Under the pieces are notes generated by a model. The model was not told the origin of the DNA. It saw nothing but the letters and a program-made list of their open reading frames with translations, and did not search any database. A DNA stretch of 18,317 nucleotides, taken from the IMG/VR virus record IMGVR_UViG_2519103024_000008; one strand, 5' to 3'. This document shows positions 236-18,317 of this stretch, piece by piece. The position numbers and the translations under genes are program-made. The number at the start of each line of letters is the position of its first letter. Positions within the stretch are counted from its first letter, which is position 1. This stretch comes from a virus. Taxonomy: Duplodnaviria > Heunggongvirae > Uroviricota > Caudoviricetes.

Positions 236-451
236 AACCGCAGCACGTTCCTGCATACGACGTGTCTGCGGCATAATCCCAATGATTACTCCCTGACAGG
301 ATTTGCAGGCCACTCAATATCAGGTGCAGTTGATGTATCAACACGATTCAACAATACCCGATATTTATTCCATGCCTCCAGCAACGATCTTTCTTCCTCC
401 GTTGCGATTTCCAGATCTACAGCATCCTGCAGTGGCGCAATATACTCACTG
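236..451. repeat. Direct repeat copy A (about 215 bp): 3' end of a tfa-like gene plus downstream hairpin; partner at 1286-1500
   Basis: Aligned by eye to 1286-1500 at roughly 85-90% identity, with one indel in the hairpin arm. Both copies begin at a CCGCAGCACGT inverted-repeat element and extend through the last ~55 codons of a Tfa-family ORF. Confidence 0.7.
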
Positions 452-1919: not shown

Positions 1920-4900
1920 TATGCAAGCCTCACAATATAGTTAAATGCGATGTTTTTGACGGTGTTTTCCGCGTTACCAGCAGCGTTAACGGTGATGGTG
2001 TGTCCATGTGAACCAATCGCAACGGAGTGCGTATGCGCACCAATACCTACAGTATGTGCATGTGCGCCAGAACTTGCTGCAGTACCAGACAGCGAGTGGG
2101 TATGAGCACCTGCTGACTGTGTCTGAATACGTTGATAATACGATCTACGGGAAGAAGTCCCCGGGCTTACTTGATACTGTGAATCCTGGACATAAGTGAA
2201 CCCACCGCCATCATAAAATGCTAACGCAGAACCGCCGCCTCCTGGCCAACGAATACCATTACCATGAGTATGATCACCGGCAGACCCCGTAGAGCCACTC
2301 AGACTGTGCGTATGCGCCCCGGTGTTATTCGTGGATTTGGTTCCGTAATCAAACGACGATGTGTTTTTCGTCCCCAAATCCGTACTGGATGCGCTGGCGC
2401 TGTGGGTGTGCGATTTAATGCCGTCCTGTTCCTGAGACAATACGGCACGACCACTGGCGGGTTTGCCCTTAATCGTCCAGCCACGCATATCAGGGATCAC
2501 GCCTGACGGATAAGCGGCTGCAAGTTTTGGGTATGCAGATTTGTCAAAAGTCTGCCCCTGCATCAGGGCATAGCCAGACGGAACGGTATCTGATGGCCAC
2601 GGGATTGGTGCGCCAGGCGGATAAAACTGCTCTGATGGCGTATAGAGTGAATAAACTGTACCGTCCGTTAACCCTTCCGGCTTATTAGCAGAATATGCTG
2701 GTGACGTATGAATCGTCACGCTGGCATTACTGGTATAATCCCATTGAATATTTACACCAGTCGCATAATTTCCGATTGCAACGTAAATATCGTAAGTATC
2801 ACCAGATGTATTGACCCAGGCAAAATTTGTAAACCCTGTCGATGTGCGCTGCCATAAAGCACCAGTAATCCCCTTCGGATTACCATTACCTGCACGCAAA
2901 ACAAGTTCAGATATACCTGCCTGTTGAGGTGACCCCACGTTAAATCCCGCACCACCAATCAACGTAATTGAAACAACAGAACTCGCCTGTGGCATGGTTA
3001 CCGTTGCTAATTTGAACCAACCAGCACCACCGCTGAATGACATTGTTGTTGAGTTAAGCGTACCAATATCTTTCGGCGTCAGTGTTATATCCGCTGAAAG
3101 CGCCTTACCATTCACCTTACGGGCAGAAGGTACCCGACCATTCGCATTATTATTAGCTGCTTTCACTGCTTTCGGTGTCGCGGCAAGCGTTTCAGATGCG
3201 CTGTTNNNNNNNNNNNNNNNNNNNNNNNNNNNNNNNNNNNNNNNNNNNNNNNNNNNNNNNNNNNNNNNNNNNNNNNNNNNNNNNNNNNNNNNNNNNNNNN
3301 NNNNNNNNNNNNNNNNNNNNNNNNNNNNNNNNNNNNNNNNNNNNNNNNNNNNNNNNNNNNNNNNNNNNNNNNNNNNNNNNNNNNNNNNNNNNNNNNNNNN
3401 NNNNNNNNNNNNNNNNNNNNNNNNNNNNNNNNNNNNNNNNNNNNNNNNNNNNNNNNNNNNNNNNNNNNNNNNNNNNNNNNNNNNNNNNNNNNNNNNNNNN
3501 NNNNNNNNNNNNNNNNNNNNNNNNNNNNNNNNNNNNNNNNNNNNNNNNNNNNNNNNNNNNNNNNNNNNNNNNNNNNNNNNNNNNNNNNNNNNNNNNNNNN
3601 NNNNNNNNNNNNNNNNNNNNNNNNNNNNNNNNNNNNNNNNNNNNNNNNNNNNNNNNNNNNNNNNNNNNNNNNNNNNNNNNNNNNNNNNNNNNNNNNNNNN
3701 NNNNNNNNNNNNNNNNNNNNNNNNNNNNNNNNNNNNNNNNNNNNNNNNNNNNNNNNNNNNNNNNNNNNNNNNNNNNNNNNNNNNNNACTCGCGTCGTTGT
3801 CGTAGCGTCCTGAGCAGTATATTTCCCGTTAGCAAGGTCATAGGCTGCCTTTACCGACTTTGGCGTTGCCGCCAGCATTTCAGATGTGCTGTTGGTTGCA
3901 CTACTGAGCTGGACAATTCCTTTTTGTGCTGTCGTAGCGTCCTGAGCAGTATATTTCCCGTTAGCAAGGTCATAGGCTGCCTTTACCGACTTTGGCGTTG
4001 CCGCCAGCATTTCAGATGTGCTGTTGGTCGCGTTGCTAAGCTGAACTATCCCTTTCTGTGCTGTCGTTGCATCCTGTGCGGTGTATTTCCCGTTAGCCAG
4101 CTCATACGCGGCCTTAACGGCTTTTGGCGTTGCCGCCAGTGACTCGGAAGTGCTGTTAGTCGCACTGCTGAGCTGTACTATCCCCTTTTTCGTCGTGCTC
4201 GCATCCTCAAGCGCCACGGCGGATGCAATATCCTCTGCCCGTTTTGCCGCTGTCTCAGCGCGCGTTGCCGCGGATTCCGCCGTACTTTTGCTCTGAGCTG
4301 CCGCCGTCGCACTGCCAGCTGCCTCTGTCGCCTTCGTGGATGCCGTCGTGGCGCTGCCCTTTGCTGCTGACGCCTGTCTGGTCGCCTCATCTTTTGAAGC
4401 AGACGCAGATGATGCCGATGACGCCGCCGAACTGGCGGACGATGCGGCAGCCGTTTTTGAGGATTCTGCGCTGGTTTCCGACGCTTTCGCGTTCGTCTTG
4501 GATGTCTTCGCTGCGGAAGCAGACCTCGCTGCTGCGCTGGCCTGTACAGCGGCTTCGCCAGCCTTCGTTGTGGCTGTTGAAGCAGACGATGCAGCACTTT
4601 CTGCCGATTTTCCGGCGGCGGTGGCACTGGCTGAGGCCTGCCCGGCACTTGTTGACGCGGCACTGGCAGATAATGCAGCCGCTGTTTTTGAGTCTGCCGC
4701 AGCTGAGGCGCTCTGTCCCGCTGCCGTTTCAGAAGACCTGGCGTTCGTCTCGGACGTTTTTGCCGCCTTCGCAGAATTTGCTGCCGCCGTTGCCGAGGAA
4801 GCTGCGCTGCTGGCGCTCGAGGCTGCGTTCGTTTCTGATGATTTTGCCGCCTCTTTTGAAGCCGACGCATCCCGTGCTGAAGTGGCTGCTTCTGACGCTT

Positions 4901-6400: not shown

Positions 6401-9400
6401 TCAGCTGATACTGATGCCTGCGGTGGCTTTCTTCATCACCACAACCAGCAAATCGCTGATACTTGCTGTGGGATACCAGTTATTCACCAGCCATGCTGAC
6501 ACCGAAAACTCCAGCGTCATGTGGCCGCGACCAGCTGGCATATCAATAACACCACTGTAAATCAGCGTATTATCCAGCGCGGTACGGTTATAAATTTCAG
6601 CACCGTTTTTCCGTACTATCAGGCGGCATGACGAATAAATATCGTTATTCTCCCGCTCATGTTTAGCGCCGCTGAATGCCACCGCCGGAATAACAATCTG
6701 CCGGTCAAACGGCTGATCGTCATAAACCCTGACGGTGATGGTCCCTGATGGCCACCGTTCCGGTGCACGGGAGTCCCGGGGGAAAGCTTTGCCCACTGTT
6801 TTAACGAGATCGCCTTCAATCTGGTTGGCGGACAATTTTCCCAGAACCCGACAGTTCTCGTTAATCGTGACGTTGTTGAGCGTCCCGGAGTTCGCATTCA
6901 CGTTACCGCTGATATCGGCATTTTTCGCCGTCAGCCGCCCGTCCGGTGTCAGGGAAAATGCCGGAGGATTACCGCCGCTGGTAATGGTCGGAGCCGTCAG
7001 GCGTTTCAGGAACACGTCGTTCATGAATATCTGATCGCCCTGACCAACAAACATCGGCTTTGTGTTGCCATTCGCAGGATTAATCATCGCAATCCGGTCA
7101 GCAGCCAGAAGCACCTGACTCTGCATACCTGCTGGCGTATTCTCAATACCGGCTCCGATACCCGCAATATAAAGGCGTCCGTCCTTCATCTGCTGCAGTT
7201 TCACGGCCCACATGCTGTTCAGGTTATTATTTGTATCAACCTGAACTTTCTGTATCTGCTGGATTGCCGCACTCTGGTCTTCCAGTTTTTTATTGACGGT
7301 CTGCGTGATTTCATTGCTGACATTCGTAATGGACGTCCTGATTTCAGCCAGGTCCGGCGCAAGCTGACCGTTATCAATCTGCGTCCACAACTCCTGGGCC
7401 AGATGTGTTTTCCCGATTTCTCCTTTGAAAAAATCCAGGTAACCTTCCGCATCATCGCTCGCCCGACCGACAGCCTCCACGAATGCCGATTTGCCAACGG
7501 TGTTCACACTGCGAACGTAAAAATAATAATCATGGCCCGGTTTGATATTGATACTGGCGGCTATCCAGTACAGCGCCGTACCAAGATAGCGGGCTGTGGT
7601 TTCAACCTGCCTGATATCGGTAATCCGCTTTTCCGAGAACCAGAACTCAAACTGTACCGTCGGGTCATAAACAGCAAGATGCGGCGTGGCGGTTATCTGA
7701 AAATAGCCCGGCGTCAGCTCAATCCTCGACGGTGCTGCCGGTGCGGCAATCCGGAACGATACCGACGCCGGATCGCCCTGCTGCCCCCGGGCATTTACCG
7801 CCCGGACTGTCAGCCTGTAGTTCCCCAGCGCCAGTTGCGTGAAGCGGTATGTGGTTTCCGTCGTCCGGGCCGTGCTGACCAGTCGCTCACTGCCGTCGTC
7901 CGCTGTTACGGTCAGACGGAGCAGGAAGCTCACGCCCTTCACCACCTTCGGTGTGTCCCATCGCGCCAGCACCTGATATTCCCCGCTGTCTGCAGTGACT
8001 TCGGCGGTCAGGTGCTGCACTGCTGGCGGCGTGACACCATTCACCGTGCCGCTCTGGTCACCGTCAAAGTGCGCCCCGTTATCCACGATGGCTTCTTTCT
8101 CCGGTACATGCTGCACGGCGGTGATGGCATACGTGCCGTCATCGTTCTCACGGATACTCACGCAGCGGAACAGGCGCTGGCGCAGCGTCGGCAGCTTCAG
8201 CCCCCACACGCTGTATTCTGCAACGCCGTCAGGAACACGGCTCACTTTCACCTTCACGCCGTCGGTGACGGACTGGACCTCCACGCTGACCGGATTACCC
8301 TGACCGTCAACCAGGCTTATCAGCGTGGTACCGGAGGATGGCAGCGTGATTTCACGGTCGAGCGTCAGCGTCCGGGTCTGGCTGTTCACCGCCAGCACGC
8401 GCCCGCCAATGCTGATCCCCGCATAGTCATCATCGCAGATTTCAATAACATCACCCGGTACATGGCGAAGCCCTTCTGCGCCGACGCTGAAATCCACGGT
8501 CTGCGTCTCCAGCAGTTCCGTTTAATCAGCCACAGCCCGGCGCGGTGTGCCTGCCCCCGGCTGGTCAGCCAAAGGCATCCATCTTCGTGACGTTACGACC
8601 GTAACGGGCAATGGCCTGCGTGTCCTCCACAGCTCTGTCNCCGTCTCCCAGCCGTTATCCGGTCAATCCAGTTCANNNNNNNNNNNNNNNNNNNNNNNNN
8701 NNNNNNNNNNNNNNNNNNNNNNNNNNNNNNNNNNNNNNNNNNNNNNNNNNNNNNNNNNNNNNNNNNNNNNNNNNNNNNNNNNNNNNNNNNNNNNNNNNNN
8801 NNNNNNNNNNNNNNNNNNNNNNNNNNNNNNNNNNNNNNNNNNNNNNNNNNNNNNNNNNNNNNNNNNNNNNNNNNNNNNNNNNNNNNNNNNNNNNNNNNNN
8901 NNNNNNNNNNNNNNNNNNNNNNNNNNNNNNNNNNNNNNNNNNNNNNNNNNNNNNNNNNNNNNNNNNNNNNNNNNNNNNNNNNNNNNNNNNNNNNNNNNNN
9001 NNNNNNNNNNNNNNNNNNNNNNNNNNNNNNNNNNNNNNNNNNNNNNNNNNNNNNNNNNNNNNNNNNNNNNNNNNNNNNNNNNNNNNNNNNNNNNNNNNNN
9101 NNNNNNNNNNNNNNNNNNNNNNNNNNNNNNNNNNNNNNNNNNNNNNNNNNNNNNNNNNNNNNNNNNNNNNNNNNNNNNNNNNNNNNNNNNNNNNNNNNNN
9201 NNNNNNNNNNNNNNNNNNNNNNNNNNNNNNNNNNNNNNNNNNNNNNNNNNNNNNNNNNNNNNNNNNNNNNNNNNNNNNNNNNNNNNNNNNNNNNNNNNNN
9301 NNNNNNNNNNNNNNNNNNNNNNNNNNNNNNNNNNNNNNNNNNNNNNNNNNNNNNNNNNNNNNNNNNNNNNNNNNNNNNNNNNNNNNNNNNNNNNNNNNNN

Positions 9401-9926
9401 NNNNNNNNNNNNNNNNNNNNNNNNNNNNNNNNNNNNNNNNNNNNNNNNNNNNNNNNNNNNNNNNNNNNNNNNNNNNNNNNNNNNNNNNNNNNNNNNNNNN
9501 CTGGATCTGAACCAGCAGGCGGACTTCCGACGGATTCCTGTCCTCCTTTGAGGTGGTTTCCACCAGTGCCTGCACACCGAAGGTAAAGCGCAGACGGTCG
9601 ATGTTTGCCGACGTGATGGTCCGGGTGATCGGCGTGTCATATTTCACTTCCGTACCCAGCACCGTCTCGGAGCCGGAGGATTCAAATCCCTCCGGCGGTG
9701 TCTGCTCCTGCTCACCTGCCCGGAACACCACCGTGACACCGGATATATTGGTATTCCCCTCACTGTCCAGCACCGGCGTACTGTTCAGCAGCACGCTTTT
9801 TAATCCGTCCACCGGACCTTCAACCGGCCCTTCGCTGATGGCATCGATCACACTCAGCAGCTGCGTGGACTTCAGGTTGTCCCTCGCTTCGCGCGGGGTA
9901 TGCCCCTTACTGCTTCCTTTACCCAT
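6401..9926 (-). CDS. J: Tail tip / host-specificity protein J (central tail fiber), interrupted by gap 8676-9500 and with frame breaks in 8498-8675
   Basis: N-terminus [54 protein letters not shown] and the long central region match lambda J as recalled. SD GAGGA precedes the ATG at 9924-9926. The last ~150 aa differ from lambda. The frame is restored by assuming 4 single-base deletions next to the gap. Confidence 0.85.
8676..9500. other. Assembly gap (825 N) inside J; isolated ambiguous base at 8640
   Basis: Run of N read directly from the sequence. Confidence 1.
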
Positions 9927-11788: not shown

Positions 11789-12542
11789 NNNNNNNNNNNN
11801 NNNNNNNNNNNNNNNNNNNNNNNNNNNNNNNNNNNNNNNNNNNNNNNNNNNNNNNNNNNNNNNNNNNNNNNNNNNNNNNNNNNNNNNNNNNNNNNNNNNN
11901 NNNNNNNNNNNNNNNNNNNNNNNNNNNNNNNNNNNNNNNNNNNNNNNNNNNNNNNNNNNNNNNNNNNNNNNNNNNNNNNNNNNNNNNNNNNNNNNNNNNN
12001 NNNNNNNNNNNNNNNNNNNNNNNNNNNNNNNNNNNNNNNNNNNNNNNNNNNNNNNNNNNNNNNNNNNNNNNNNNNNNNNNNNNNNNNNNNNNNNNNNNNN
12101 NNNNNNNNNNNNNNNNNNNNNNNNNNNNNNNNNNNNNNNNNNNNNNNNNNNNNNNNNNNNNNNNNNNNNNNNNNNNNNNNNNNNNNNNNNNNNNNNNNNN
12201 NNNNNNNNNNNNNNNNNNNNNNNNNNNNNNNNNNNNNNNNNNNNNNNNNNNNNNNNNNNNNNNNNNNNNNNNNNNNNNNNNNNNNNNNNNNNNNNNNNNN
12301 NNNNNNNNNNNNNNNNNNNNNNNNNNNNNNNNNNNNNNNNNNNNNNNNNNNNNNNNNNNNNNNNNNNNNNNNNNNNNNNNNNNNNNNNNNNNNNNNNNNN
12401 NNNNNNNNNNNNNNNNNNNNNNNNNNNNNNNNNNNNNNNNNNNNNNNNNNNNNNNNNNNNNNNNNNNNNNNNNNNNNNNNNNNNNNNNNNNNNNNNNNNN
12501 NNNNNNNNNNNNNNNNNNNNNNNNNNNNNNNNNNNNNNNNNN
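11789..12542. other. Assembly gap (754 N) covering the M 3' end and most of L
   Basis: Run of N read directly from the sequence. Confidence 1.
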
Positions 12543-12826
12543 ATACTGACCTGCGACGACCATTTTGCGCAGGTCACCTTTATCTGCCTGTAACCATAAG
12601 GCGGCGTCCACAGAAAGGCCTTCCAGCCCCCGTGCTCAGCCAGAAACGACTCCAGCGCCGTGGCCTCCTCACGGGAGACAGACAGCGTCACGCTGTACGT
12701 TTTCAGGTCAGCGTTCAGCCCGGCAGGCGCACGCTGGGAATAGCCATCACCAAAGCGCACCTCCCTGACGGAAGGAGCCGATGTCACATCCATCCCGGGT
12801 TTCACTTTCCAGCGGAAGGTTTTCAT
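12543..12826 (-). CDS. M: Minor tail protein M, 5' portion (94 aa visible; 3' end in gap)
   Basis: MKTFRWKVKPGMDVTSAPSVREVRFGDGYSQRAPAGLNADLKTYSVTLSV matches lambda gpM as recalled. Its ATG (12824-12826) overlaps the H stop codon. Confidence 0.85.
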
Positions 12827-15397
12827 CGTCCACCTCCGGAGAACAGTCCACCATCACGCATCTGTGTCTGAATTTCATCACGGGCACCCTTGCGGGCCAT
12901 GTCATACACCGCCTTCAGAGCAGCCGGACCTATCTGCCCGTTCGTGCCGTCGTTGTTAATCACCACATGGTTATTCTGCTCAAACGTCCCGGACGCCTGC
13001 GACCGGCTGTCAGCCAGACTGCCCGGTGTACCGACATAACCACCGGTGGCATAGCCGCGCATCAGCCGATAGAGATTCCCCACGCCAATCCGGCTGGTTG
13101 CCTCCTTTGTGAAGACAAATTCACCACGGTGAACAATCCCCGCTGGCTCATATTTGCCGCCGGTTCCCGTAAATCCTCCGGTTGCAAAATGGAATTTCGC
13201 CGCGGCGGCCTGAATGGCTGTACCGCCTGACGCGGATGCGCCGCCACCAACAGCCCCGCCAATGGCGCTGCCGATACTCCCGACAATCCCCACCATTGCC
13301 TGCTTAAGCAGAATTTCTGTCATCATGGACAGCACGGAACGGGTGAATCCCCGCCAGTTCTGTTCGCTGCCGGTCAGCATCGCCGCCATATTCTGTGCAA
13401 TACCGTCAAAGGTCTGCGTGGCCACACTTTTAACCTGCGAAAAACTGTCCGTCGCACTTTCCGCCCACTCTCCCCAGCCGGACTTCATCCCGGCCATCCA
13501 GCTTCCACGAAGCTGCTCCTCCGCAGACCAGGTGTTCTTCAGTGCCGATGTGGCCTTCGCCAGCGCAGCCGGATTATCACCGTACACCTCACGAAGGCGC
13601 TGCTCTTCCGACTCCCGCTGCGCCTGACGGTCGGTGAGGCCGCGGGCTTTTGCGCTGATTGCCGCCTGCTTCGCGCTTTGCTGCTGTTCAAACCGCGCCG
13701 CCTGCTGTGCCAGCTCATTCAGCCGCTTCTGGTGTTCAATCTTGTCTCCCAGCTCAGCCAGCTGGCGTTTGTACTCCAGCGTCTCTTTCTCATGAGCCAG
13801 CAGGGATTTTTCCTGCTCAGATAACTGCCGTTTCGTGGCGGCCTCTTTCAGGACCACATACTGACTTTCCGCTTCCCATAAATCCCGGCGCTGCTGGCTG
13901 ATTTTCTCATTCACACCGCTGTGTTTTTCCAGCGTCCTGAGCTCGGTTTCAAGCGCCAGCAGGGCTGCATGCGCCCGGTCTTCCTGGCGCTCACCGGCAG
14001 ACACCTTCACACCTGACGGCTTTTTCAGCGTCGATTCATAATCCTTTTTTGCCGACGCCATCAGCGTGTTGTAATCCGCCTGCAGGATTTTTCCGTCTTT
14101 CAGGGCCTTATTCAGCTCTTTCTGACGGGCGGTATATTTATCCAGCGGCGTCTGCAGGCGCTCATACGCCTTCTGCGCCTCTCCGGTATACTTCAGCTGT
14201 GACGACTCACGCTCAGCCCTGTCCCTTGCCGCCAGTTCACCGGCTTTTTCCATATCCGACTGCAGCGTGGCCGCTGCCAGACCCAGACGGGCATTTTCCC
14301 GGTCATCCCATGCCCCCTGAAGGTTCGCACGAAAAGAGGAGGTCTTTCCCCGGCGCTGGCTCCGGCTCTGGTACCACTGCCATTTTTTATCCGCCTCATC
14401 AAATGCCTTCTGCGCACTGGCGAGCATATCCGCTGAGGATTCCGGACGACCGATATCCAGAATGGCATCCCACATCGATTTGAATGCCTTCCCTGTTTTA
14501 TCCGCCCAGGTCTCCAGTGTTCCCATGTTTTCTTTCAGGCGACGGGTCTGCTCATCAAAGCCTTTCGTGGCGATATCGTTCGCCGCCTGCAATGCCCCGG
14601 CCTCGTCTCCGGAACGCTGCAGCTGTGCAACATACGCAATCTGCTCTGCCGTCACGTTACGGAACTGGCGCGCCATCGCCATCAGTCCCGACGTCGGGTC
14701 AGTGGTCAGCTTCCCGAAGGCTTCAGCGACTTTATCCACCTCCACACCGGATGCAGACGCAAAACGCGCGACACTCTGGTTGATGGCATCAAACTGTTCA
14801 CCACCACGCACACCGGCATTCACCAGGGCTGCCAGTGACTCTCTCGCCTGGTTAAACGTCAGCCCTGCTGCCTGCCCGGCTCTTGAGAGCGTCAGCATAC
14901 GATCGGCAGTCAGTCCGGCCTGATTGCCGGAAAGGACCAGCGTTTTATTAAATTCTGAAAGCGTGGCGTCGCCCTGGTACCAGGCGTACGCCAGCGCACC
15001 TGTCGCCACCGCCAGCGAGGTGACCCCGACCATCGGCAGGGTGATCGCACCGGCAAGCCCCCTGAACATGGGGATCATCCCGCCGAAGGAGTCCTTCACC
15101 TGACCGCCCTGTTGCAGCAGGATCAACCAGGGATTCTGACCACCGGCAAGCTGCGTGGCGATATCCGTAAACTGTGCGGGCAGGGTTCGCATGGCCGCTT
15201 TATACTGCCCGGACGGAAATCCCGGCTTTTTGTGCAGCCAGCGCCTGGCGGCTCAGGCCCTGTTCAACAGCACTGGCGGTTTTTCTGGCGTCGGTATCCA
15301 GACCTGAAAAATGACGCCTTACCCGGCTCATCTGCTCATCGAAACGGACAGCATCCAGACTCAGGTCAATAACAAGATCACCAACCGGCTGGGACAT
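12823..15397 (-). pseudogene. H: Tail tape measure protein H, about 857 aa, broken by a +1 frameshift (extra C/G) at about 15208-15214
   Basis: Two adjacent ORFs (15200-15397, 65 aa; 12823-15192, 789 aa) jointly cover a lambda gpH-like protein (MSQPVGDLVIDLSLDAVRFDEQMSRVRRHFSG ... QTQMRDGGLFSGGGR). Removing one base from GTCCGGGCAG restores a continuous ...ISVGQYKAAMRTLPAQFTD... reading. May be sequencing error rather than true inactivation. Confidence 0.8.
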
Positions 15398-16249
15398 ATC
15401 TCACACCTCCCGGAATCCCCGCTGAAGCCATCATTAATGCGGCATCATCCACCATGACATCCGCCACATCCGCAGACGATAAAATATCGCGCCCTCCGTC
15501 CCCACCGAACCGGACGCCTCCGGCAAGTCCTGCCGCTTTCTGCATCAGCATTTTGTCCTCATCCGGCCTCTCCACCTGCTCTTCCTCATGCCGGGGGACA
15601 AGCAGACTGAAATCAGAGGGATGCATATCCGGATCGCAAAAAAACAGGCTGAGTACAGCGTACGTCAGCCCGGAAAAATGCATATCCAGCTGGGTATCCT
15701 GAAAATAATGCGTGCGGTAAAAACGGTGCCAGTCGGCATATTCGGTGGATGTCATCCCGGCAAGCATGGCGCGCCAGTCGGGTCTCCCCATCTCACGCGC
15801 CAGTCTGAGGGCAAAGTTCAGCTCGCCGTCGAAGACTTTCCCGCAGAAAAATCATCATCAGTCAGCGTGTTATTTTTCGCCACTTCAGTAATATCAGTAT
15901 CCGGACGAACAGCTTCGATCATCCCGGACAGGCACAACACCACGTCTTCCGCCCGGGCAATGGCATCGGCAGGCCAGGTGGTGAGCACTTCCTGCTCTAT
16001 CTTCATCACGGCCTCATTCATTGACGGTGACTGCGTTTTCTGTGGATGGTTATGCCACAGGGACATCGCCACCAGAAACGCGCCGGTTCTGACGAGATCT
16101 TCCACGCTTACCTGCAGGTTGCCGCAGGATTCTGCCTGTTCTGCACGCCGTTTCAGGAGGGCAAGATGCTCGATACGCTGCAGCGCAGACAATTCGGAAA
16201 GCGTGACAGACACACCGTTATATTCAAATTGTTCTGTTTTCAGAAACAT
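15378..16249 (-). CDS. T: Tail assembly chaperone G-T fusion made by programmed -1 ribosomal frameshift (T has no independent start)
   Basis: The -1 frame from the slippery heptamer reads GKVFDGELNFALRLAREMGRPDWRAMLAGMTSTEYADWHRF..., continuous with the T-frame ORF 15378-15791 and matching the lambda gpGT junction as recalled. Confidence 0.85.
15818..16249 (-). CDS. G: Tail assembly chaperone G (143 aa)
   Basis: MFLKTEQFEYNGVSVTLSELSALQRIEHLALLKRRAEQAE..., ending ...FSAGKSSTAS; position between V and H; contains the frameshift heptamer near its 3' end. Confidence 0.9.
   Translation of the reverse strand: MFLKTEQFEYNGVSVTLSELSALQRIEHLALLKRRAEQAESCGNLQVSVEDLVRTGAFLVAMSLWHNHPQKTQSPSMNEAVMKIEQEVLTTWPADAIARAEDVVLCLSGMIEAVRPDTDITEVAKNNTLTDDDFSAGKSSTAS
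15836..15842 (-). promoter_or_regulatory. Slippery heptamer G GGA AAG for the G/G-T -1 programmed frameshift
   Basis: Revcomp of 15836-15842 (CTTTCCC) is GGGAAAG, in the G frame as G GGA AAG (codons Gly-Lys of ...SAGKS...), identical to the lambda G-T slip site. Confidence 0.85.
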
Positions 16250-17963: not shown

Positions 17964-18317
17964 TTATCGTCGCCGGTTAACTGCGGGTGGTTGACCACGG
18001 TTGAGCCAGAGATAACAGCTGCCCCCGTCATCCGGAGAAACACGATCCACCCAGAATATCTCACCATTAATGGTCAGCGTGTCACCACGCCGCACGGCAC
18101 GAACCGTATCCGTCCGCACAAATAATGACGGGCTGCTTCCTTCAATACGGACCCCGCCACCGGCAAACCCCAGCGACTCCGGATCATCAAAAACCCCCTG
18201 AACTTCGCTGCCACACTGTGCCCCCGAGGTGAACTGCGCACAGAGCCCCATCACTTCAACGATCGTACTGTCTACCCCGGCGAGGGCAGCATCAAAGGCA
18301 TTCTGAAAATCACGCAT
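17964..18317 (-). CDS. FII: Head-tail joining / tail attachment protein FII (117 aa); start codon is the last 3 bases of the window
   Basis: MRDFQNAFDAALAGVDSTIVEVMGLCAQFTSGAQCGSEVQGVFDDPE...GEIFWVDRVSPDDGGSCYLWLNRGQPPAVNRRR, recalled as lambda gpFII. Confidence 0.85.
   Translation of the reverse strand: MRDFQNAFDAALAGVDSTIVEVMGLCAQFTSGAQCGSEVQGVFDDPESLGFAGGGVRIEGSSPSLFVRTDTVRAVRRGDTLTINGEIFWVDRVSPDDGGSCYLWLNRGQPPAVNRRR

What the first reader, a model, noticed from the sequence alone, without database searches (positions are those of the whole stretch)
15195..15225. +1 frameshift splits the tape measure gene H away from any gap
H is read as a 65-aa N-terminal ORF and a 789-aa ORF that together span a lambda-like tape measure protein. 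A single extra base in GTCCGGG (15208-15214) accounts for the break; deleting it restores ...ISVGQYKAAMRTLPAQFTD.... Unlike the J indels, this one lies in the middle of a contig. If real, the prophage cannot build tails and is defective, which would imply the morons are retained for host benefit. If it is an error, the prophage may be fully functional.
Basis: partly seen in the sequence, partly recalled or inferred. Interest (0 to 1): 0.5.

Follow-up and report, generated by a model that had tools for sequence, protein, structure and literature searches.

The report
Likely sequencing error in phage tail gene
One extra base splits the tail-length (tape measure) gene of a lambda-like prophage in a gapped draft genome of E. 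coli HM605; no other public sequence has that base, so it is most likely a sequencing or assembly error and says little about whether the prophage works.

Summary
On the minus strand, lambda-type gene H is split into a 65-aa ORF (15397..15200) and a 789-aa ORF (15192..12823) by one extra C (GTCGGG becomes GTCCGGG; + strand 15211/15212). Removing it gives an 857-aa protein identical to the H protein of APEC O1 and UTI89, colinear with lambda gpH.

The extra base is unique to this record, HE572566.1, the gapped draft pseudo-chromosome of E. coli HM605.
- None of 3,727 matching records from complete E. coli genomes carries it.
- Seventeen complete genomes match the whole 5,775-nt contig except for this base.
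- The frameshifted 32-mer has no hit in the viral, metagenome or species-representative contig collections.
- The two split products occur in no other assembly.

The same record has four single-base deletions and an N at a nearby contig end. The site is far from a gap, but dozens of independent assemblies end contigs within about 10 nt of it.

Verdict: about 70% sequencing or assembly artefact and about 27% genuine, very recent, strain-private mutation. Programmed recoding is rejected. In either case nothing follows about selection on the prophage's moron genes. Interest is low.

The parts
12823..15397 (-). Lambda-type tail tape measure gene H, 2,575 nt here against 2,574 nt in relatives. It is interrupted by one extra base. 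The restored product is 857 aa.
   Evidence: The restored protein is identical to APEC O1 WP_000082348.1. It aligns over residues 1-857 with residues 1-853 of lambda gpH (PDB 8iyk chain H), E=0. Pfam TMP_2 covers residues 54-256 and Tape_meas_lam_C covers 631-705.
15200..15397 (-). Upstream fragment: a 65-aa ORF comprising H residues 1-62 plus an out-of-frame RAV and a TAA stop at 15202-15200. A GGAGG Shine-Dalgarno sequence lies at 15410-15406.
   Evidence: This exact product is found only in record HE572566.1.
12823..15192 (-). Downstream fragment: a 789-aa ORF starting at the internal Met69 codon of H (the M of ...KAAMRTL...). Its ATG lies 7 nt after the upstream TAA and has no clear Shine-Dalgarno sequence.
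   Evidence: This exact product is found only in HE572566.1. The Pfam TMP_2 match starts at profile position 17, so the domain is truncated.
15211..15212 (-). The extra base: one of these two G's on the + strand (CC on the coding strand, H nt 186/187). All relatives have a single C here.
   Evidence: No occurrence in 3,727 matching records from complete E. coli genomes, nor in the viral, metagenome or genome contig collections.
15818..16249 (-). Tail assembly chaperone gene G (143 aa).
   Evidence: Pfam Phage_TAC_2. Annotated as gpG in UTI89 and APEC O1.
15836..15842 (-). G GGA AAG slippery heptamer, the expected programmed -1 G/GT frameshift site, six codons before the G stop.
   Evidence: The role of G/GT is described in PMC5009743. 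Function here is inferred by identity with the lambda motif and was not tested.
15378..15791 (-). T open reading frame (137 aa as called), expressed in lambda as the C-terminal part of gpGT. It overlaps the H start by 20 nt.
   Evidence: Pfam Phage_tail_T. Annotation.
8524..8663 (-). Cluster of four single-base deletions (8663, 8632, 8566, 8524) and an N (8640) in gene J, all within 152 nt of the contig end at 8675. These show the record's local error level.
11789..12542 (.). The assembly gap nearest to the frameshift: 754 N, where APEC O1 has 647 nt.

Best explanation
The extra C is most likely an error in the consensus of a gapped draft assembly, the HM605 pseudo-chromosome HE572566.1, and the real gene is an intact lambda-type tape measure gene H.

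The gene encodes the 857-aa protein that sets tail length. It sits behind the G/GT chaperone pair, which has its normal -1 slippery site, and ahead of M-L-K-I-J. That layout matches sister prophages of ST95-type strains such as APEC O1 and UTI89.

The proposed cause of the error is inferred, not shown. The site lies at the start of a DNA block that is nearly identical among the H genes of co-resident lambdoid prophages. Reads from paralogous copies pile up there and assemblers branch. A one-base length miscall (C read as CC, next to GGG) could then survive into the consensus.

The identity and normal function of the gene are shown by homology. The artefact status is inferred from uniqueness and from the quality of the record.
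For: (1) Uniqueness. The best of 3,732 matching E. coli records is 420/421. With a 71-nt query, 0 records reach 100% and 1,610 match at 70/71. Seventeen complete genomes are identical over all 5,775 nt of the contig except this base.
(2) The frameshifted 32-mer has 0 hits in 2.9 M viral contigs, 241 M metagenome records and 185,579 species-representative genomes. The intact 31-mer hits at least 120 viral contigs.
(3) Both split products occur in a single record among 153 billion gene positions.
(4) Over 19.8 kb against APEC O1 the same record shows 5 single-base indels and 1 N but only 3 substitutions. Four of the five indels change the length of a run of identical bases.
(5) The record is a draft with N runs whose sizes do not match the reference, and it ends inside this prophage.
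(6) Independent assemblies end contigs at H nt 180-194, around the extra base at nt 186/187. These appear in 61 and 35 index blocks. Distant tape measure genes start to align just upstream of the site.
(7) There is no secondary decay: the rest of H is identical to the intact allele.
Against: No reads are available, so the call cannot be verified.

The site is 2.7 kb from a gap, and a 1-to-2 length change is not the most typical homopolymer error.

HM605 appears to be a truly distinct lineage. Its two mid-contig substitutions are private, synonymous third-position changes, so a private real indel is plausible. My rough estimate, not a computed result, is about 0.3 real indels expected in these 20 kb.

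Real or apparent frameshifts do occur in this prophage elsewhere: the lysozyme gene is annotated as frameshifted in APEC O1.

The sequencing platform could not be confirmed, because the genome announcement is not in the library. My recollection that it was 454 pyrosequencing is unverified.
Confidence: 0.7

Rival explanations
1. The insertion is real: a very recent, strain-private single-base insertion that inactivates gene H in the HM605 prophage. Ribosomes would terminate after 65 aa. At best, inefficient reinitiation at the ATG 7 nt downstream would give an H protein lacking residues 1-68 and part of the TMP_2 domain. The prophage would probably be unable to assemble normal tails.
For: The site is mid-contig, 2.7 kb from any N run. 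HM605 carries private, synonymous and therefore probably genuine SNPs in the same 20 kb. Duplication of a neighbouring base is a normal replication-slippage mutation. Prophage genes do decay by frameshift in this lineage, for example the APEC O1 lysozyme annotated as 'frameshifted'. The break falls inside the conserved TMP_2 domain, so it would plausibly be inactivating.
Against: It is absent from every other genome, phage, metagenome and assembly examined. No further decay is seen in H or its neighbours. The same record has demonstrable single-base errors. The site is a recurrent assembly break zone.
Confidence: 0.27
2. The split is bridged during expression. Either a programmed +1 ribosomal frameshift at GUC CGG G (with the rare CGG codon in the A site) or transcriptional slippage would produce full-length H from the interrupted gene.
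For: CGG is a relatively rare Arg codon in E. coli (my own knowledge). Slow A-site codons can stimulate +1 shifts, and compensatory frameshifting on indels is a known phenomenon (PMC5009743).
Against: A recoding site should be conserved, yet every homologue, including lambda and Stx phages, has the uninterrupted in-frame sequence. The P-site tRNA-Val cannot re-pair from GUC to UCC, unlike the CUU-U sites of prfB and Ty1 (sequence; the mechanism is from my own knowledge). There is no long A or T run to support transcriptional slippage.
Confidence: 0.01
3. The extra base comes from a chimeric join between two different prophage H alleles in the assembly, that is, a mis-join rather than a base-call error.
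For: The site sits where allele classes share a conserved block and assemblies branch.
Against: The sequence on both sides of the site is the same APEC O1-type allele with zero mismatches over 5,775 nt. No allele switch is visible, so a mis-join would have to be between identical flanks.
Confidence: 0.02

Closest known systems
Bacteriophage lambda tape measure protein gpH (PDB 8iyk, 8iyl, 8k35; Pfam TMP_2 PF06791 and Tape_meas_lam_C PF09718)
   Same: The restored 857-aa product is colinear with the 853-aa gpH from end to end (E=0, 1487 bits). It has the same two Pfam domains and the same gene order (Z-U-V-G-T-H-M-L-K-I-J-lom).
   Different: In this record the ORF is interrupted at codon 62/63 by one extra base. 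The central region (about residues 330-400) differs from lambda, as is usual for mosaic lambdoid phages.
H gene of the ompW/yciE-adjacent lambdoid prophage of ST95-type E. coli (APEC O1 APECO1_RS06895, UTI89 UTI89_RS07255; WP_000082348.1)
   Same: 100% identical protein after removing the base. The DNA of the whole 5,775-nt contig is identical to APEC O1 and 16 other complete genomes apart from this base.
   Different: Those genomes have GTCGGG and an intact 2,574-nt ORF.
Single-base indel artefacts in draft bacterial assemblies (run-length miscalls, low-quality contig ends, repeat-boundary consensus errors)
   Same: The change is private to one draft record. It alters the length of a one-base run next to GGG. 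The same record has four more single-base indels and an N at a contig end. The site lies in a repeat block where assemblies break.
   Different: It lies 2.7 kb from a gap. The platform and read depth are not known to me from any tool result.
Programmed -1 frameshift of lambda G/GT
   Same: It is present and apparently normal just upstream (GGGAAAG at 15842..15836).
   Different: It is a separate, conserved recoding event in the neighbouring gene. The H interruption is a +1-type break with no slippery motif and no conservation.

Membership tests
Lambda-type tape measure protein (gpH) | Full-length colinear similarity to lambda gpH | tested here: met
   The restored protein aligns over residues 1-857 with residues 1-853 of 8iyk_H, E=0. 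This holds only after removing the extra base.
Lambda-type tape measure protein (gpH) | Pfam TMP_2 and Tape_meas_lam_C domains above the gathering score | tested here: met
   233.7 bits (cut-off 30.2) and 75.5 bits (cut-off 23).
Lambda-type tape measure protein (gpH) | Position downstream of the G/T chaperone genes with their slippery site and upstream of M-L-K-I-J | tested here: met
   Gene lists and annotations. Heptamer.
Lambda-type tape measure protein (gpH) | One uninterrupted reading frame | tested here: not met
   Split into 65-aa and 789-aa ORFs in this record. Uninterrupted in all relatives examined.
Sequencing or assembly artefact | Variant confined to a single record while otherwise identical sequences lack it | tested here: met
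Sequencing or assembly artefact | Independent signs of base-level errors in the same record | tested here: met
   Four 1-nt deletions and an N within 152 nt of a contig end. The indel-to-substitution ratio is 5:3 over 19.8 kb. N-run sizes are inconsistent with the reference.
Sequencing or assembly artefact | Reads or independent resequencing contradict the consensus | not testable with these tools
   No reads are available. No complete HM605 genome was recognisable in the E. coli collection, since none shares its private SNPs.
Genuine prophage pseudogene | The same lesion in independent isolates or assemblies of the lineage | tested here: not met
   0 of 3,727 records from complete genomes and no other assembly in the 153-billion-gene index.
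Genuine prophage pseudogene | Accompanying decay (further stops, indels or excess substitutions) in the gene or operon | tested here: not met
   Zero other differences over 5,775 nt against 17 genomes. This does not exclude a very recent event.
Programmed +1 ribosomal frameshift | The interrupted frame arrangement is conserved among homologues | tested here: not met
   All homologues are in frame.
Programmed +1 ribosomal frameshift | A shift-prone motif that allows P-site tRNA re-pairing in the +1 frame | tested here: not met
   The site is GUC CGG G, and GUC to UCC does not re-pair (sequence; the rule is from established knowledge of the prfB and Ty1 sites).

The most novel reading that the evidence does not exclude
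The insertion is real, and HM605 carries a freshly inactivated tape measure gene, or a split one rescued by termination-reinitiation at the ATG 7 nt downstream. That would make this otherwise pristine prophage tail-defective in one Crohn's disease isolate only.
Probability: 0.27. Interest if true: 0.12.

Novelty: not a real feature. Interest (0 to 1): 0.07.

Why it matters
It matters mainly as a caution. A frameshift in a draft genome is not made trustworthy by lying far from an assembly gap. This one sits in a conserved block shared by co-resident lambdoid prophages, where assemblers routinely branch.

Calling the HM605 prophage defective, or building arguments about domestication and moron retention on it, would be unsafe. 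If the base were real, it would be an ordinary, very recent pseudogenising mutation in one strain.

Tried and rejected
- Programmed +1 recoding or transcriptional slippage: rejected. There is no conservation, no re-pairing motif and no long homopolymer.
- Chimeric join of two H alleles: rejected. Both flanks are the same allele with zero mismatches.
- A twin or resequenced HM605 among complete genomes: none found. None shares the private SNPs at 2528 or in trpB, so no same-strain check was possible.
- Genome-wide error rate of the record: I could only reach 3.6 kb beyond the window, because look-ups are limited to window-encoded proteins.
- Confirming the sequencing platform: accession searches found nothing. 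The strain was identified through the assembly name. The genome announcement (Clarke et al. 2011, J Bacteriol 193:4540) is not held. One literature search was badly designed and uninformative, and another paper's 454 work concerned a different strain.
- Why contigs end exactly at nt 180-194: the k-mer logic was not fully resolved. I report the break zone as an observation and the repeat-boundary cause as an inference.

Full report
**1. What is in the sequence.**

The feature lies on the minus strand. An ORF from 15397 to 15200 encodes 65 aa (MSQPVGDLVIDL...AQKAGISVRAV*). It is preceded by a GGAGG Shine-Dalgarno sequence at 15410-15406. The +1 frame reads ...GQYKAAMRTLPAQFTDIATQLAGGQNPWLILLQQGGQ across the same stretch. 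The 789-aa ORF from 15192 to 12823 starts at the internal Met of ...KAAMRTL..., 7 nt after the upstream TAA.

**2. Which base is extra.**

Base-by-base comparison with the syntenic prophages of UTI89 (L001) and APEC O1 (L017) gives GGATTTCCGT-CGGGCAGTAT in both references. The window has GGATTTCCGTCCGGGCAGTAT. So a single C has become CC on the coding strand (+ strand 15211/15212; H nucleotides 186/187).

Deleting it gives an 857-aa ORF identical to WP_000082348.1, the H protein of APEC O1 and UTI89. That protein aligns end to end with lambda gpH (PDB 8iyk chain H, 853 aa, E=0). It carries Pfam TMP_2 (residues 54-256) and Tape_meas_lam_C (631-705), so the break at residue 62/63 is inside the TMP_2 domain.

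The gene order around it is the lambda tail module: FII, Z, U, V, G, T, H, M, L, K, I, J, lom, tail fibre. The lambda-type G GGA AAG slippery heptamer lies six codons before the G stop, at 15842..15836. Its role in G/GT expression is reviewed in PMC5009743.

**3. Where the window comes from.**

Exact look-up of both split products finds them in one record only, HE572566.1 of assembly GCA_000285375.1, a 4,989,509-bp molecule. The window sits at the very end of that record, which stops 43 nt beyond the window, inside gene FI.

I inferred the assembly name ASM28537v1 from the accession using NCBI's default naming. That name is listed for E. coli HM605, an adherent-invasive Crohn's disease isolate (PMC12306157). 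HM605 is phylogroup B2, O1:H7 (PMC7232551), which fits the near-identity to APEC O1 (O1:K1:H7). The genome was announced as 154 WGS contigs, CADZ01000001-154 (PMC3236047).

The window contains three N runs (581, 825 and 754 N) and a lone N. The run lengths do not match the amounts of sequence missing relative to APEC O1, which are about 36, 775 and 647 nt. This is therefore a scaffolded draft. I could not read the announcement. My recollection that it was a 454 pyrosequencing project is unverified.

**4. Is the extra base seen anywhere else? No.**

- A 421-nt query matched 3,732 records from 3,711 of 5,426 complete E. coli genomes. The best hits are 420/421, differing by a single gap.
- With a 71-nt query centred on the site, no record reaches 100%, and 1,610 records match at 70/71.
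- Seventeen complete genomes (APEC O1, SF-468, SF-088, HS13-1 and others) are identical over the whole 5,775-nt contig apart from this base.
- The frameshifted 32-mer has no match in IMG/VR viral contigs, JGI metagenome contigs or the GTDB species-representative genomes.
- In an alignment with APEC O1, lambda imm434, two kinds of Stx phage and a Stx2 phage whose tape measure N-terminus is unrelated, all five others read GT-CGG(G/A)CAG.

**5. Quality of the record.**

Against APEC O1, 19,793 aligned bases of the record show 3 substitutions, 1 N and 5 single-base indels. Four of the indels (8663, 8632, 8566, 8524) and the N (8640) lie within 152 nt of the contig end at 8675 and wreck gene J. Three of those four, plus the H insertion, change the length of a run of identical bases. 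With only five events, that proportion is not statistically remarkable.

An indel-to-substitution ratio of 5:3 is the opposite of what real divergence between close E. coli relatives gives (established knowledge). It shows that the consensus contains base-level errors.

**6. 'Away from any gap' is true but less reassuring than it sounds.**

The 90% cluster containing the 65-aa fragment holds many in-frame 'partial' H N-termini that end at residues 60-67 and were seen on dozens of contigs. Look-ups confirmed that these are contig ends, listed in 61 and 35 index blocks. They come from NCBI isolate assemblies, Logan assemblies and ENA metagenomes, which use different assemblers and k-mer sizes. 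The ends fall at H nt 180, 181, 182, 192, 193 and 194, and the contigs that reach that far carry the intact GTCGGG. The extra C at nt 186/187 lies in the middle of this zone.

The likely reason is inferred, not shown. Distant tape measure genes (HK225, HK639, Serratia and Klebsiella phages) begin to align only from about H nt 126-188. The alignment shows a block, from about nt 140 on, that is nearly identical among otherwise different alleles. E. coli genomes carry a median of two such genes and up to eight. Reads from paralogous prophages therefore merge here and assemblers branch. I did not fully work out why the ends fall at exactly these nucleotides.

**7. Weighing error against a real mutation.**

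For error:
- complete uniqueness of the base;
- demonstrable errors in the same record;
- a branch-prone location;
- no secondary decay.

For real:
- the mid-contig position;
- the fact that HM605 seems to be a genuinely separate lineage.

On the second point, all three substitutions are private to this record. The two mid-contig ones are synonymous third-position changes (CCG to CCA in the tail fibre gene, CTG to CTA in trpB), which looks like real drift. The third (GGG to GAG in J) lies 44 nt from a gap and is ambiguous. With about 1e-4 private substitutions per site, a few tenths of a real private indel might be expected in 20 kb. That figure is my rough estimate, not a computed result. APEC O1 also carries an annotated frameshift in the lysozyme gene of the same prophage.

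I put the artefact at about 0.70 and a real private mutation at about 0.27. Only reads or resequencing can decide.

**8. Other readings.**

Programmed +1 frameshifting or transcriptional slippage is rejected. No homologue shares the interrupted arrangement. GUC CGG G offers no +1 re-pairing for the P-site tRNA, and there is no long A or T run.

A chimeric join of two alleles is unlikely, because both flanks are the same allele without a single mismatch.

**9.

If the base is an error, H is intact and nothing here argues that the prophage is defective. The draft cannot show that it is functional either: J carries apparent errors, three gaps are open, and the record end cuts the prophage.

If the base is real, H would be truncated after 62 native residues. 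Reinitiation at the downstream ATG is mechanistically possible, but there is no Shine-Dalgarno sequence, and the product would lack the start of the TMP_2 domain. Loss of tail assembly would then be the likely outcome, though that is an inference.

Even then the event would be private and very recent, given zero other differences over 5.8 kb from 17 genomes with intact H. It would therefore say nothing about long-term retention of lom or other morons for host benefit.

**10. Verdict.**

The feature is most probably not real. At best it is an ordinary pseudogenising mutation in a well-known gene family. Interest is low.

Noticed in passing
window 15836-15842 (-), within G (15818-16249) and upstream of T (15378-15791): The canonical lambda G GGA AAG -1 slippery heptamer sits six codons before the G stop. 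G and T are called as separate ORFs, but this is the expected programmed G/GT frameshift, not a defect.
   Followed up: partly
window 8524-8663: Four single-base deletions (8663, 8632, 8566, 8524) and an N (8640) in gene J lie within 152 nt of the contig end at 8675. They are absent from APEC O1 and UTI89, and this looks like a low-quality contig end.
   Followed up: yes
window 3206-3786, 8676-9500, 11789-12542: N-run lengths disagree with the sequence missing relative to APEC O1: 581 N plus 11 nt against about 36 nt, 825 against 775, and 754 against 647. The first gap lies in the internally repetitive tail-fibre gene and is either grossly oversized or hides extra repeat units.
   Followed up: partly
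L004:1-43, just beyond window position 18317: Record HE572566.1 ends 43 nt past the window, inside head gene FI. The prophage is therefore cut by the end of the pseudo-chromosome, and its head, lysis and regulatory half must lie elsewhere in the record or be missing.
   Followed up: no
H nt 180-203 = window 15195-15218; loci L005-L016: Dozens of independent assemblies (NCBI isolates, Logan, ENA metagenomes) end contigs here. It is a recurrent assembly break zone at the start of the most conserved DNA block of lambda-type tape measure genes.
   Followed up: partly
window 2528; window 9544; L004:21481 (trpB): Three substitutions against APEC O1. The 2528 and trpB changes are absent from all 5,426 complete genomes; 9544 was not checked that way. 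Two are synonymous (CCG to CCA, CTG to CTA). One is Gly to Glu in J, 44 nt from a gap. All three are G-to-A changes on the coding strand.
   Followed up: partly
window 8402-8483: A cluster of 11 substitutions against UTI89, mostly at three-base spacing, in J. It is shared exactly with APEC O1, so it is a mosaic or recombinant J segment and not an error.
   Followed up: yes
L017:5687-6221 (APEC O1, same prophage): RefSeq annotates the prophage lysozyme of APEC O1 as frameshifted, whereas the UTI89 copy (rrrQ) is intact. This is either real decay or an error in another genome of the lineage.
   Followed up: no
window 236-451 and 1286-1500: Two copies of a tail-fibre-assembly gene segment, about 90% identical and on the same strand (same orientation in the alignment). 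One is a truncated remnant next to a DUF4376 pseudogene. They flank a class I SAM-dependent methyltransferase gene (612-1280, +), a probable moron.
   Followed up: no
L004:18664-18789, about 300 nt beyond window position 1: An N-terminally truncated ompW remnant abuts the prophage end next to yciE/yciF in APEC O1 and UTI89. This indicates integration into ompW, the same site named in the Stx2 phage record 'PPompW'.
   Followed up: no
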